DNA of 62,975 bases, the filler included, from Octopus bimaculoides (Eukaryota), in the NCBI RefSeq assembly GCF_001194135.2. It is 3 parts of 3 records of this genome, joined end to end, with 100 filler letters (N's around TTAATTAATTAA, not from the genome) between each part and the next. Parts side by side here need not be neighbours in the genome. Positions count along the whole stretch, not along the records: positions 44,281 to 62,975 come from NC_068999.1; 2 more parts are not named here. One strand, given 5' to 3'. Position 1 is the first letter of the stretch, and each line of letters starts with the position of its first letter. Position numbers and translations under genes: made by a program. The notes under the pieces were generated by a model. That model made no database searches. It was not told the origin of the DNA and saw only the letters and a program-made list of their open reading frames with translations. Positions 45,308 to 55,679 of this stretch are shown one piece after another.

Positions 45308-45598
45308 CAGACATGGGCGTCGGCGCTGTTGTCTGCTGCAGCACAGTCAGCGTGCTGGGCAGGAGAGACCTTGGACTTCTGTTGGCAATGTTGATGGTGC
45401 AGGCAACAGGATAAGGCTGCGACGGGAGGGGGTCTAGTTGGGCTTCGTACACTCCCCCCGAATTGGCACCATTGGAAGTTTTGCTGCTGACGTTAGCAGG
45501 AACCGAGCCACTGGCAGTGGAGGCCTTTGGTCCTTTGCTCCCAGTAGAACTTCGTTGCTTTTTCCTGACATTGGTCATGCTCCCATTGGTAGGGGTCT
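45308..45598 (-). CDS. Probable coding exon 5: S/T/P/Q-rich segment with basic RKKQR cluster
   Basis: Strong acceptor TTTCTCTCCTCCAG and donor TCTG|GTAACG. 291 nt, phase 1/1, open frame, GC-rich island among microsatellites. Membership in the same transcript is inferred. Confidence 0.6.
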
Positions 45599-45677
45599 CT
45601 GGAGGAGAGAAATCAGCAAGAAGACAAAATTTAGTAACTACACAATTGCCAAGGTGACGGATACATATTCATTCCTT

Positions 45678-45806
45678 TAAGGCCCACAAGGGGCTAAACA
45701 TTAGAGGGGACAAACAAGCACAGACAAAGGGATTAAGTCGATTACATCGACCCCCCAGTGCGTAACTGGTACTTATTTAATCGACCCCGAAAGGATGAAA
45801 GGCAAG
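45678..45806 (-). mobile_element. SINE family B 3-prime part (long-tail variant)
   Basis: Reverse complement of about 25765-25890. Confidence 0.8.
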
Positions 45807-46429
45807 CTGATGATGGATAAATATTATTAACTGCAAAGTTGACTGTATCCCCTTTTTTTGTGGCAGGGGTGGGTGAGGTGGGGATGGGGGTGAGTCAACA
45901 TTTTTCTTTTGAGATGTTTATTTTAAAATTAGGTACAACGATTTGGGGGTTCAGTCCCACTGTTTGGCACATTAGGAAAGTGTCTTCCTTGGTAGACCAG
46001 GTTTCACCAATGTCCTGGAAATGTATTGGTAGATGAAAACTGAAAGCCAGCTGTATATTATGTGTGTGTGTATGGGGGGGGGGAGTCTGTTTGTCTTGAC
46101 ATCTTGTGATAGTCGTAAATGAGACTCACTGTCTTACAAGCGGTGTCACTCATTTCCAAATTTCTGCAAAAAAACATGTCTGGAAGTTGTTACCTCGGCT
46201 GAAAACAAAGGAGGGTTAGTGACAGGAAGGGCATCCAGCCACAGAAAAAACAAAAATCTGCCTCATCAAATTACACCTGACTCCCACACAGGTATGTAGA
46301 CAGGGAACTTAAAATGATGAGGATGATATAAAAAAAAAAAAAAAAATCTCCCAAAAATGGTGATTGTTAAAACATTTAATCAACCAAAACACTTTACTTC
46401 ATTAAGCACTTAAAATATATTATATTATA

Positions 46430-47022
46430 GGCGCAGGAGTGGCTGTGTGGTAAGAAGCTTGCTTCCCAACCACATGGTTCTGGGTTCAGTCCCACTGCGT
46501 GGCACCTTGGGCAGGTGTCTTCTACTATAGCTTCTGGCTGACGAAAGCCTTATGAGTGGATCTGGTAGATGGAAACTGAAAGAAGCCTGTCATATATATN
46601 NNNNNNNNNNNNNNNNNNNNNNNNNNNNNNNNNNNNNNNNNNNNNNNNNNNNNNNNNNNNNNNNNNNNNNNNNNNNNNNNNNNNNNNNNNNNNNNNNNNN
46701 NNNNNNNNNNNNNNNNNNNNNNNNNNNNNNNNNNNNNNNNNNNNNNNNNNNNNNNNNNNNNNNNNNNNNNNNNNNNNNNNNNNNNNNNNNNNNNNNNNNN
46801 NNNNNNNNNNNNNNNNNNNNNNNNNNNNNNNNNNNNNNNNNNNNNNNNNNNNNNNNNNNNNNNNNNNNATGTATGTATGTATGTGTTTGTTGTTTGTGTC
46901 TGTGTTTGTCCTCACCCCACCATCGCTTGACAACCAATGTTAGTGTGTTTACATCCCCGTAACTTAGTGGTTCAGTGAAAAGAGACCGATAGCATAAGTA
47001 CTAGGCTTACAAAAAATAAGTC
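46430..47022 (+). mobile_element. SINE family C (gap in centre)
   Basis: GGCGCAGGAGTGGCTGTGTGGTAAG head and CORE-like segment. Confidence 0.88.
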
Positions 47023-47675
47023 CTGGGGACTGAGTGCTTTTTAAGTGACACAAGTACAGGCTAAGTCAGTTTTGGCACGGTTTTTTACAGCTGGGTGCCC
47101 TTCCAAAGACCAGCCACTTTACAGTGTGGACTGGGTGCTTTTAAGTGGTACCTGCACTGACAGGGTCACCAAGTACTTGCAAGACAAAAACTTTTAAGAG
47201 GGGAGGAGGCATTGGAAGAGGGGGTGTTGATGAAAAGGCGGTGGTAGCACTAGGCCCAAAACCATGCAGTTAGGAGGAGAAATTCTTAACCGCAAGGGAA
47301 GGAAGACAATCGTGATAAGAAATGGGAATGGAAGAAAAAAAAAAAGAAGAAGAGGGTAATGGAAGGAAGAGGAAGAGGATGAAGATAGAGAGAGACAGAA
47401 GAAGAACAACATAAGATTAATGAAGGGCTGTAAAAATAACTGGCTACTTACTGCTCTGTGTATCAACTGGACTAACAAATGTTTCAGTTAAGGGCATGTG
47501 ACCAAATACAGCCTCGTATGGTGTGACACGACCGTGAGTTTTCACAAACTTTGTATTGGCTAAGTCTGAAAAGACAAGTGAAATAGGGAGTGATTTAGGG
47601 CATCAGATCAAGGCCTTGGAGCTAAGTAGTAAGGTCTGTAGTCAACTATGAACTGCCCTTATGCTATAAGCTGAG

Positions 47676-47970
47676 CCAACAAAAAACCCTCCCACAATTC
47701 TACAACTTTTAAGGACCCTTCCACTATTCTACTACTTATTTATTTCAGCCAACAAAAGACCCTCCCACAATACTCCTACTGCAGCTACTTAAGGACCCTC
47801 CCACCATTCTCCAACTTTTAAGGCTCCTCCCACTATTCTACTACTTATTTATTTCAGCCAACAAATGGCCCTTCCCACTACACTACTGTTACTTATTTCA
47901 TCCAACAAAGGCTCCTCCCACTATACTCCTACTGCTACTTAAGTACCCTCCCACAATTCTACAACTTTTA
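47676..47970. repeat. Minisatellite of CCTCCCACTATTCTACTACTT-type subunits, higher-order period about 109 bp
   Basis: CCACTATTCTACTACTTATTTATTTCAGCCAACAAA at 47721 and 47830. Confidence 0.85.
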
Positions 47971-53230: not shown

Positions 53231-53564
53231 TGATTTTGATTCTATATATATATAATCAATGTTGAGAGAAAAAAGGAAATGGAGAAATAATGGATGTATG
53301 AATAATTTATTTGTATGTTATAAAATGATGAAAATTTCTTTTAAAAAACAACAGTACAAATAAATTGATTACAAGGTGTAAAGCTCAAAAAATAAAATAA
53401 AACACAAATAAATTATTCATACACGCATTATTTCTCCATTTTCTTCTTTTCCCTCAATATCGATAATATATAATTTCAATAATCTCTAACATATACCAAT
53501 GGCTTTCGCATTATATGACAGGGATTAACCAGTGGAACACCTTGGATTATATAATCCCTAATGA

Positions 53565-53897
53565 GGAGCACCGCCTTTAGTTGAGCAAATTGACCCTAAG
53601 ACTTATACTTTGTAAGCCTAGTACTTATTCTATCGGTCTCTTTTGCCAAACCGTTAAGTTACAGGGATGTAAACACACCAGCATCGGTTGTCAAGTGATG
53701 TTGGGGGGACAGTAAAAAGCACCCACTACACTCTCTGAGTGGTTGGCGTTAGGAAGGGCATCCAGCTGTAGAAACTCTACCAAATCAGATTGGAGCCTGG
53801 TGTAGCCATCTGGTTTCACCAGTCCCCAGTCAAATCGTCCAACCCATGCTAGCATGGAAAGCAGACGTTAAACGACGACGATGATGATGATGATGAT
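53565..53897. mobile_element. SINE C 3-prime half (minus) fused to family D 3-prime end (plus)
   Basis: Junction GGGGGGACAG|TAAAAAGCACCCACTAC near 53711. Confidence 0.85.
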
Positions 53898-54854
53898 ATA
53901 TATNNNNNNNNNNNNNNNNNNNNNNNNNNNNNNNNNNNNNNNNNNNNNNNNNNNNNNNNNNNNNNNNNNNNNNNNNNNNNNNNNNNNNNNNNNNNNNNNN
54001 NNNNNNNNNNNNNNNNNNNNNNNNNNNNNNNNNNNNNNNNNNNNNNNNNNNNNNNNNNNNNNNNNNNNNNNNNNNNNNNNNNNNNNNNNNNNNNNNNNNN
54101 NNNNNNNNNNNNNNNNNNNNNNNNNNNNNNNNNNNNNNNNNNNNNNNNNNNNNNNNNNNNNNNNNNNNNNNNNNNNNNNNNNNNNNNNNNNNNNNNNNNN
54201 NNNNNNNNNNNNNNNNNNNNNNNNNNNNNNNNNNNNNNNNNNNNNNNNNNNNNNNNNNNNNNNNNNNNNNNNNNNNNNNNNNNNNNNNNNNNNNNNNNNN
54301 NNNNNNNNNNNNNNNNNNNNNNNNNNNNNNNNNNNNNNNNNNNNNNNNNNNNNNNNNNNNNNNNNNNNNNNNNNNNNNNNNNNNNNNNNNNNNNNNNNNN
54401 NNNNNNNNNNNNNNNNNNNNNNNNNNNNNNNNNNNNNNNNNNNNNNNNNNNNNNNNNNNNNNNNNNNNNNNNNNNNNNNNNNCAAAAAAACCCCCAAAAA
54501 ACCCCAATAAAAATGAAAAAAGCCCCCCCCCCCAAAAAAAAATCAATATCGGTTTCCACTTTTAGTTTGTGATCATAACCCAAGACCACCAATATATACG
54601 ATTACAAAACAAAACGAAACAAAACAACAAAAACACGATTTTCATGTTAAACTTAAGAGAAAAGAAAAACAAAACACAAAAAATAAAACTCATTTTCGCA
54701 AAAGACGATAAAAAATATCTGGCGAGAGAAACTCAACACATTTGAAAACTTTGTAATTCCTTATTAGTTCTTTATGTAACTAATTATGCCTAAACGAAAA
54801 ACTGACTCCAATCAAGATTACACACACACGTCTTATAATATTTATTTCAATAAT

Positions 54855-55050
54855 GACGAGAAGCTGGCAGACTCGTTGGCCCATCAGGCAAAATGCTTAG
54901 CGAAGTTCTGAGTTCAAATTCAGTCGAGGTAAACTTGATCTTTCATCCTCTCGGAGATCAATAAAATAAGTACCCGTTGAACTCTGGGTTCGATGCAACC
55001 GACTAACCCCAGCTACTCCAAAAATTGCTGGACTTGTGGCCAAAATTTAA
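54855..55050 (+). mobile_element. Diverged SINE family B
   Basis: AGCTGGCAGA...AAATGCTTAGCG...GTTCTGAGTTCAAATT. Confidence 0.75.
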
Positions 55051-55385
55051 AATCAGGAAGTTTTTGCCATAATTAAAAGCTTTAATAACCAAACGAAATT
55101 AAGAGCAACGCTGCAATTATTTTATGCAAATAAATTTATCCCAACAATGTTTCTTAAAATTGAACAAACAGAAGACTAAGATGATACACTAACATATATT
55201 TTCTGTGCCATTACATATACATTCACGCACACACATATACATTCACACACACGCCTACACAATCACACACAGAGGTTAAAACTGTACATTAGATGTGTTT
55301 ATTTGTTCGCCGGGACAATTCCTAATTTCCACAGCTCAAATACAAACTAACGTAATCATTAATCATAAATTAAAACTCAACGAAC

Positions 55386-55679
55386 CCTATTTGCGGTTTT
55401 CCGGCCCTTTTTCACTGTACACAAGACATTCTGTAATCGAAGCAAAGGGAAATCTTTGAGTTGGATTTTGTCCTGCTTCACATAAGACGTGATTTCCGAG
55501 TCTGAAAAGTCTGGATCGTTCTGAAGAACTTTCAAGATGCGTCCAGCTTTCTCTTGGGAGATGACACAGTCAGTGGGAGTGTCTGTTAAATACTGGTCAA
55601 TGCATTTATTGAATATTTCTTTGAACTCGGCCAAGCTTTTCGGTCGATCTCCCTCCATAATGTTTTGTATAACGGCCAT
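55386..55679 (-). CDS. Coding exon 1 of integrase-derived gene (NOL4/KRBA2-like N-terminal region)
   Basis: ATG at 55679 in strong context (ATAATGG) with an in-frame TGA at 55691-55689. Encodes MAVIQNIMEGDRPKSLAEFKEIFNKC...KGRKTANR. The phase-0 donor AGG|GTTCGT matches the phase-0 acceptor of the next exon. Non-repetitive, protein-like composition. Confidence 0.8.

What the first reader, a model, noticed from the sequence alone, without database searches (positions are those of the whole stretch)
45308..55679. Hidden spliced gene: apparent domesticated Ginger2/KRBA2-type integrase
Seen: four exons join through GT-AG introns with matching phases (0,0,0) into one frame, and a fifth can join in phase 1. 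The product is N-terminal domain, H-x7-H-x28-C-x2-C finger, linker, integrase-like core and S/T/P-rich tail, about 580 aa over exons 1-5. Known: H2C2 plus rve core is the architecture of retroviral/Gypsy integrases, Ginger transposases and the domesticated genes GIN1, KRBA2 and SCAND3. Inferred: kb-scale introns that have collected several SINEs, intact exon frames, no visible TIRs and a dead active site point to a host gene under selection rather than a mobile element. I cannot tell whether it has been described.
Basis: partly seen in the sequence, partly recalled or inferred. Interest (0 to 1): 0.85.

Follow-up and report, generated by a model that had tools for sequence, protein, structure and literature searches.

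The report
Tamed dead transposase gene of cephalopods
This spliced, transcribed octopus gene encodes a protein likely descended from a jumping-gene enzyme; it lacks the DNA-cutting residues yet has a clear counterpart in cuttlefish, so their common ancestor likely tamed it for a host job, probably binding DNA without cutting it.

Summary
The gene is real, but it has six exons in the window, not five. The 613-codon join matches an existing Octopus bimaculoides database protein, so it is annotated, though uncharacterised. RNA reads confirm two junctions.

The protein keeps the H2C2 finger and a predicted integrase fold (Z 17). Its DDE triad reads T/N/H. Its nearest kin are SCAND3/KRBA2-like (Ginger2-type) proteins.

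A cuttlefish orthologue has the same architecture, has lost two of the three acids, and is 58% identical in the core against 16% in the linker. That points to domestication in or before the coleoid ancestor (~270 My). Two intron positions also occur in non-cephalopod relatives, so the introns alone do not prove domestication.

O. sinensis and O. vulgaris models add downstream exons, some ending in a calmodulin-like EF-hand module; these are not in the window. Five literature searches aimed at this gene found no description. The closest analogue is crustacean Imagin. dN/dS, synteny and Nautilus could not be tested.

The parts
55386..55679 (-). Coding exon 1 (aa 1-98; ATG at 55679, a second ATG at 55658 used by RefSeq models): N-terminal extension domain
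   Evidence: Fold best match is the PFV integrase N-terminal region, Z 7.5.
52226..52354 (-). Exon 2 (aa 99-141): H124 and H132 of the H2C2 zinc finger
   Evidence: Pfam PF17921 E 0.003, below cut-off.
51080..51703 (-). Exon 3 (aa 142-349): C161 and C164, then a K/T-rich basic linker predicted disordered (net +28 over aa 195-290), then the start of core strand 1
   Evidence: covered by RNA reads and contigs.
48836..49223 (-). Exon 4 (aa 350-478): RNase H-like integrase core; catalytic positions read T351, N416 and H455 (or a short deletion at the third) instead of D, D, E
   Evidence: Junction 51080>49223 in 7 and 3 raw reads and 2 contigs. Fold matches PFV integrase core, Z 17.1.
47452..47565 (-).
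   Evidence: Junction 48836>47565 in 3 and 2 raw reads and 2 contigs.
45308..45598 (-). Exon 6 (aa 517-613): S/T/P-rich cassette exon, predicted disordered, skipped in some isoforms; ends in a GT donor
   Evidence: One contig piece covers exactly 45308-45598, while another contig runs 675 nt past exon 5 with no piece shown on exon 6. Skipped in O. sinensis X3 and both O. vulgaris models.
44181..44280 (.). 100-nt spacer (44 N, a 12-nt six-frame-stop linker, 44 N): likely an artificial join between scaffolds, so the gene's 3' exons lie outside this piece
   Evidence: an identical block at 24147-24246. The reading as a scaffold join is an inference; tblastn finds no downstream exons in the window.

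Best explanation
This spliced, transcribed Octopus gene lacks the integrase catalytic acids, likely descends from a Ginger2-type DNA transposase domesticated in or before the coleoid ancestor, and likely works as a zinc-binding dimer that binds DNA or chromatin without cutting it. Shown: exon structure, two splice junctions, transcription, triad loss, and a cuttlefish counterpart. Predicted: intact N-terminal extension, H2C2 and RNase H-like folds, and a core homodimer. Inferred: an intron-bearing element lost its ends and its catalysis, and its binding scaffold was kept under selection while the linker and tail drifted. Least certain: it acts in the nucleus as a gene or transposon regulator, and in octopuses alternative 3' exons would attach a calmodulin-like calcium sensor. 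My odds are about 0.92 for domestication, 0.85 for Ginger2 origin and 0.45 for a nuclear DNA-binding role.
For: Six-exon stop-free ORF; 0 of 20,000 random joins were open. Junction reads in 2 of 2 raw RNA runs and 2 of 2 contig sets laid; 18 of 24 listed runs, from 6 studies, hold exon 3. O. sinensis and O. vulgaris proteins are 97-98% identical in the N-terminal and finger regions and 95-96% in exon 4, against 79-80% in the linker. The cuttlefish protein CAE1324920 is identical at 94/161 core, 37/91 N-terminal, 31/67 finger, 16/97 linker and 24/101 tail positions. Unnamed exon-sized fragments that group with it break at the same exon borders. Cephalopod rows form one group (SH-aLRT 100) on a long stem with shorter inner branches. 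Triad: T/N/H in octopus and S/D/H in cuttlefish, while structural residues and all four zinc ligands are kept; the profile aligns these columns to the acidic motifs of PFV integrase. Folds match PFV integrase: core Z 17.1, rmsd 2.9 over 160 residues; N-terminal part Z 7.5, rmsd 2.6 over 96. Core homodimer: score 0.80, best of 3 controls 0.00, runs agreeing in at least 82% of contacts, pLDDT at least 74; this mark was reached by 17 of 29 eukaryotic dimers and 0 of 30 single chains.
Against: No dN/dS, synteny or genome-wide copy count: no genome was held. Only one named non-octopus orthologue was found. Expression in the two raw runs is low (exon depth about 1-14 per strand column). The dimer pass may come from likeness to solved integrase dimers, and the interface is not significantly more conserved than the rest of the core (24/36 vs 70/125, p 0.34). 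The basic linker is not shared: the cuttlefish linker is acidic (net -13), although its C-terminus is basic. The cuttlefish model has no EF-hands. The closest analogue, Imagin, is cytoplasmic rather than nuclear (PMC12863088). Cuttlefish keeps the second Asp, and other acids (D354, D376) remain, so residual metal binding is not excluded.
Confidence: 0.72

Rival explanations
1. It is domesticated as above, but works as a cytoplasmic RNA-binding or scaffold protein, perhaps in the germ line, like crustacean Imagin.
For: Imagin has the same retained H2C2 plus dead core and accumulates in oocyte cytosol (PMC12863088, abstract and Discussion). No conserved basic linker between octopus and cuttlefish.
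Against: Transcripts or DNA of exon 3 occur in runs from 6 studies, which suggests broad rather than narrow expression, though tissues are not known. The N-terminal extension domain is kept; its role in DNA contact in foamy-virus integrase is recalled, not tested. Both orthologues have long K/R-rich stretches.
Confidence: 0.25
2. The domestication is older than coleoids (molluscan or wider), and gastropod proteins or NOL4-like proteins that carry only the N-terminal and H2C2 module are its orthologues.
For: An Elysia protein is the best non-cephalopod hit to the cuttlefish N-terminal module (75.5 bits). The top Atlas cluster for aa 1-170 is commonest in Mollusca (score 0.94).
Against: The N-terminal tree puts the Elysia protein with the NOL4-like rows (support 91; the NOL4 label is recalled), apart from the cephalopod group (98). 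No non-cephalopod core above 36% identity appears among 132 hits.
Confidence: 0.15
3. The source was a Gypsy retrotransposon integrase or a Ginger1 transposase, not Ginger2.
For: The best solved relatives are PFV and Ty3 integrases. With core columns alone the long-branched cephalopod group falls outside the main cluster of relatives. No curated Ginger2, KRBA2 or SCAND3 reference sequence was in my trees.
Against: Top hits are named SCAND3-like or KRBA2-like (E 1e-23 to 1e-19), and those genes derive from Ginger2 (PMC3575427). Long polyprotein-like hits score only E of 1e-5 or weaker. No YPYY or GPY/F motif is present, which fits Ginger2 (PMC2836005). With N-terminal plus core columns the group nests among SCAND3/KRBA2-like rows (98, midpoint root). 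Intron positions are shared with those relatives.
Confidence: 0.07
4. It is a single decayed or non-autonomous transposon copy that happens to be transcribed.
For: 48 of 89 near-full cores examined have an altered triad, so dead triads are common in this family (9 of the 48 are the cephalopod rows, and some others are truncated or misaligned). The introns can be inherited from the element.
Against: Open frames and matching domain conservation in octopus and cuttlefish, lineages split about 270 Mya (PMC8967140). No family of close copies was found. Exon contigs show no variant letters. No TIRs were found.
Confidence: 0.03

Closest known systems
Imagin (malacostracan crustaceans; PMC12863088)
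   Same: Multi-exon invertebrate host gene; H2C2 finger and integrase core kept, DDE lost, inverted repeats lost, hundreds of millions of years old.
   Different: Imagin derives from Ginger1 and has YPYY. This gene lacks YPYY and GPY/F and is nearest to Ginger2-type proteins; it is an independent event in cephalopods. It has a long inserted linker, alternative 3' exons, and EF-hand isoforms in two Octopus annotations. Imagin has dN/dS and localisation data; this gene has none.
KRBA2 and SCAND3 (therian mammals; PMC3575427)
   Same: Single-copy host genes built on a Ginger2 transposase; database proteins named after them are the nearest hits.
   Different: There the transposase lies in one exon fused behind KRAB or SCAN. 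Here it is split over five exons with probably ancestral introns, has no KRAB or SCAN, and any added host domain is C-terminal.
Ginger2/Tdd DNA transposons (PMC2836005)
   Same: H2C2 plus integrase-type core; no YPYY or GPY/F motif.
   Different: No DDE triad; no TIRs or TSD found; no close copies; about 10 kb or more, against 2.7-6.7 kb for listed elements.
Prototype foamy virus and Ty3 integrases (PDB 2x6n, 4bac, 7q5b)
   Same: Predicted N-terminal extension, zinc-binding domain and RNase H-like core folds.
   Different: 13-18% identity, no catalytic acids, no matching C-terminal domain; structural analogues only.

Membership tests
Ginger2/Tdd transposon (mobile element) | H2C2 zinc finger | tested here: met
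   H124, H132, C161, C164 kept in octopus and cuttlefish.
Ginger2/Tdd transposon (mobile element) | DDE catalytic triad | tested here: not met
   T/N/H in octopus, S/D/H in cuttlefish.
Ginger2/Tdd transposon (mobile element) | TGT-ended TIRs of 50-180 bp and a 4-bp TSD | tested here: inconclusive
   None found, but the 3' flank ends at a probable scaffold join and has N gaps.
Ginger2/Tdd transposon (mobile element) | Multiple similar copies | tested here: inconclusive
   One annotated locus per species among hits, and no variant exon contigs; no genome to count copies in.
Ginger2-derived protein lineage | Nearest relatives are Ginger2/SCAND3/KRBA2-type, and YPYY and GPY/F are absent | tested here: met
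   This rests on database names of relatives; no curated reference sequences were used.
Ginger1-derived genes (GIN1, Imagin) | YPYY motif and/or GPY/F motif | tested here: not met
   Neither motif in three Octopus proteins or the cuttlefish protein; one unrelated FPTY in the cuttlefish linker.
Domesticated transposase gene | Spliced transcript with an open frame | tested here: met
   two of five junctions seen directly, the others indirectly.
Domesticated transposase gene | Orthologues kept across distant species | tested here: met
   Three Octopus species and Acanthosepion pharaonis, plus unnamed fragments with the same exon borders.
Domesticated transposase gene | dN/dS well below 1 | not testable with these tools
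   No orthologous DNA could be obtained; only protein-level domain-versus-linker contrast.
Domesticated transposase gene | Conserved synteny | not testable with these tools
   No eukaryotic genome available; the scaffold piece holds no recognised neighbouring gene.
KRBA2/SCAND3 orthologue | N-terminal KRAB or SCAN domain | tested here: not met
   No such Pfam hit.

The most novel reading that the evidence does not exclude
A coleoid-specific dead transposase that octopuses have wired, by alternative 3' splicing, to a calmodulin-like EF-hand module: a calcium-switched DNA or chromatin binder built from a transposon, born around the time of the coleoid genome reorganisation.
Probability: 0.15. 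Interest if true: 0.78.

Novelty: new member of a known kind. Interest (0 to 1): 0.5.

Why it matters
Few transposase domestications are documented in non-model invertebrates; the Imagin paper says so and asks whether this is a trend (PMC12863088). This would be an independent, Ginger2-derived case in cephalopods, about 270 My old or more. It is currently mislabelled in databases as 'uncharacterized', 'calmodulin 5' or 'nucleoside hydrolase-like'. It adds a candidate coleoid-specific regulator that can be tested in knock-out-tractable squid. The many other dead-triad SCAND3-like proteins seen in fish, crustaceans, a snail and a hydrozoan hint that Ginger2 capture is recurrent. Function is untested, so for now it is a solid catalogue-level discovery, not a new mechanism.

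Tried and rejected
Five-exon model: rejected; it gives a stop at the exon 4-6 join.

Downstream exons inside the window: none found by tblastn with six orthologous isoforms.

Whole genome: not held. Metagenome scan for orthologous DNA: 88 pattern matches, none confirmed.

Pfam on single exons: nothing above cut-off; Rtf2, CRF-BP_C and Mucin hits were dismissed as weak or compositional. PDB by single sequence: one chance hit. Foldseek on the N-terminal part: no match at E 0.001 or better; PFV was top at E 0.5. Rfam: 0 hits.

TIR search: only microsatellites, N runs and repeat copies. Interface conservation test: not significant.

No run holding the stretch was on record as RNA. Earlier scan notes: nothing in three look-ups.

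Literature. Locus and protein IDs gave 0 papers. (cephalopod or mollusc terms with integrase, Ginger or domestication terms) listed nothing describing this gene; I saw listings and abstract starts, plus passages of PMC10027918, which does not mention Ginger. The GingerRoot paper has no mention of KRBA2, octopus or molluscs, so that lead was dropped. No listed paper linked NOL4 to transposases. Subscription journals, Repbase and supplements were not searched.
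Full report
Observation. The region holds a minus-strand gene with six coding exons: 55679-55386, 52354-52226, 51703-51080, 49223-48836, 47565-47452 and 45598-45308. All introns are GT-AG, in phases 0,0,0,1,1, and measure 3031, 522, 1856, 1270 and 1853 nt. The join is 613 codons with no stop; 0 of 20,000 random joins of the same lengths were open. Without it the exon 4-6 join gives a stop (575 codons, 1 stop). Exon 4 as a query returned a 100% identical 614-aa UniRef protein of Octopus bimaculoides, named 'Integrase catalytic domain-containing protein', and two O. 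sinensis isoforms at 95%. The clusters also hold RefSeq LOC128250104, O. sinensis LOC115222060 X1-X3 and two O. vulgaris models. The gene is annotated but uncharacterised.

Expression. 18 of 24 listed runs, from 6 studies, hold exon 3; none was on record as RNA. I laid 4 runs on 45210-51720, covering exons 3-6 only. Junction 51080>49223 appears in 7 and 3 raw reads, and junction 48836>47565 in 3 and 2 raw reads, from about 6% of each of two RNA runs. Both junctions appear in one contig from each of the two contig sets, with no differing letters. The exon 5-6 junction is not among the rows shown (82 were not shown), but one contig piece covers exactly exon 6. Another contig runs 675 nt beyond exon 5 with no piece shown on exon 6, which fits skipping. 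The contigs carry 393 and 428 nt before exon 3, which fits exons 1-2. Exon depth is low; intronic repeats are tens to hundreds of times deeper.

The gene is cut off. O. sinensis and O. vulgaris models continue after exon 5 or 6 into a shared exon. They then end either in a basic tail or in a calmodulin-like module with EF-hands (PF13499 E 2e-17). None of this lies in the window. A 100-nt N-linker-N block at 44181-44280, repeated at 24147-24246, is probably an artificial scaffold join (inference), which would explain the truncated O. bimaculoides models. Whether the EF-hand isoform is a real fusion or read-through into a neighbouring gene could not be tested. Two annotations of closely related species both contain it; the cuttlefish model does not.

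Relatives. HMMER over 1.84 billion representatives gave 132 hits at E 0.001 or better. After the Octopus cluster and a 55%-identical fragment, the best are 27-30% identical proteins. Those with names are called SCAND3-like (toadfish, mussel, mantis shrimp), or are sponge and amphipod proteins; a hydrozoan KRBA2-like protein sits in a lower-ranking cluster. SCAND3 and KRBA2 derive from Ginger2 transposases (PMC3575427; parts 1-2 of 3 read). Ginger2 has H2C2 and DDE but lacks YPYY and GPY/F (PMC2836005, passages), as does this protein. One cluster revealed an 817-aa cuttlefish protein (Acanthosepion pharaonis CAE1324920). Unnamed exon-sized fragments grouping with it begin and end at the octopus exon borders.

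Trees. On core columns (79 rows after dropping 12 redundant isoforms, near-copies and short fragments) the 7 cephalopod rows are one group, support 100, stem 1.57; its place is unresolved, and I chose the 5 outgroup rows as Gypsy-like from recalled motifs. On N-terminal plus core columns (44 rows) the group lies among the SCAND3/KRBA2-like rows, support 98, midpoint root. Both are quick trees with a long branch, so the placement is suggestive only.

Constraint. Against O. sinensis and O. vulgaris, identity is 97-98% in the N-terminal and finger regions, 95-96% in exon 4, 92-95% in exon 5 and 79-80% in the linker. Against cuttlefish it is 94/161 in the core, 31/67 in the finger, 37/91 in the N-terminal domain, 16/97 in the linker and 24/101 in the tail. 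Coleoids split about 270 Mya (PMC8967140, passages). A neutral transposon copy would not keep open frames and this pattern that long (inference). dN/dS was not computed.

Active site. The family consensus motifs align to the acidic motifs of PFV integrase. Octopus has T351, N416 and H455; the aligner alternatively opens a 3-residue gap at the third site. Cuttlefish has S, D and H. The first and third acids are absent in both lineages, so catalysis was probably lost before they split. Zinc ligands and structural residues (P364, H373, D376, P386, G408, P410, W433, W470, N482, P494, Y495) are kept. Of 89 near-full cores examined, 41 had D-D-E and 48 did not; 9 of those 48 are cephalopod rows, and some others are truncated or misaligned.

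Introns. Of the non-cephalopod proteins held, 12 short ones have the first-Asp motif within 45 residues of their start. About five of these have an acceptor-like lead-in at the position of intron 3. Four stop or jump at the position of intron 2. Ginger1 elements carry 1-4 introns (PMC2836005), and the Imagin authors make the same point. Introns 2 and 3 were therefore probably inherited, and are not in themselves evidence of domestication.

Structure. AlphaFold2 gives two confident regions (about aa 10-170 and 340-505) separated by disorder. The core matches foamy-virus integrase (Z 17.1, rmsd 2.9, 160 aligned; Foldseek E 2e-8). The N-terminal 170 residues fold confidently (pLDDT 91) and best match the N-terminal regions of PFV (Z 7.5) and Ty3 (Z 6.0) integrases, which is modest but consistent. 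The core is predicted to dimerise through helices 397-411 and 471-483 (score 0.80, best control 0.00; 17 of 29 eukaryotic dimers and 0 of 30 single chains reached the mark). Like dimers are solved, so this shows likeness, and the interface is not significantly more conserved than the rest of the core (p 0.34).

Mechanism. Most likely an intron-bearing Ginger2 element in an early coleoid lost its ends and catalytic acids. The host kept the N-terminal extension, the zinc finger and the dimerising core as a non-catalytic nucleic-acid-binding scaffold, and lineage-specific disordered linkers and tails were added as interaction surfaces. I favour a nuclear DNA or chromatin role (about 0.45) over an Imagin-like cytoplasmic role (about 0.25). 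Neither is tested.

Novelty. The kind is known: KRBA2, SCAND3, GIN1 and especially Imagin (PMC12863088; abstract, passages and Discussion read; no mention of cephalopods or Ginger2 in its main text). Five searches aimed at this gene found no description in the open library; subscription papers, Repbase and supplements were not seen. Verdict: a new member of a known kind, well supported as a domesticated gene, function open, with the EF-hand fusion as the main upside.

Noticed in passing
window 24147-24246 and 44181-44280: Identical 100-nt N-linker-N blocks; the window is probably three unrelated scaffolds concatenated, so neighbourhood across them should not be read as synteny.
   Followed up: partly
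proteins P0002, P0006, P0007 (O. sinensis X1 and X3; O. vulgaris CAI9736608): Isoforms end in a calmodulin-like EF-hand module, while X2 and CAI9736609 end in a basic tail. O. vulgaris models are misnamed 'calmodulin 5' and 'nucleoside hydrolase-like'.
   Followed up: partly
   Followed up: partly
proteins P0009, P0012, P0013, P0023, P0020/P0157, P0030: SCAND3/KRBA2-like proteins of toadfish, mantis shrimp, amphipod, dog whelk, a hydrozoan cluster and an unnamed source also have altered triads with long unique tails: candidates for further independent Ginger2 domestications.
   Followed up: no
proteins P0037 (Elysia), P0119, P0121, P0058: The same N-terminal and H2C2 module occurs without a core, fused to other sequence (a nucleoside hydrolase in Elysia). 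P0119 and P0121 look NOL4-like from recall, which suggests NOL4 may also be Ginger2-derived; two searches listed no paper saying so.
   Followed up: partly
window 17258-18807 (-): A 277-aa frame resembling the C-terminal part of a LINE reverse transcriptase, followed by C2H2-like pieces (label from recall).
   Followed up: no
window about 33560-34300: A degraded mariner-like transposase fragment on the + strand, read by eye (label from recall).
   Followed up: no
window 56056-56461 and about 58300-59600: Degenerate 44-nt repeats about 400-800 nt upstream of the ATG, and a degenerate 66-nt repeat region further upstream; role unknown.
   Followed up: no
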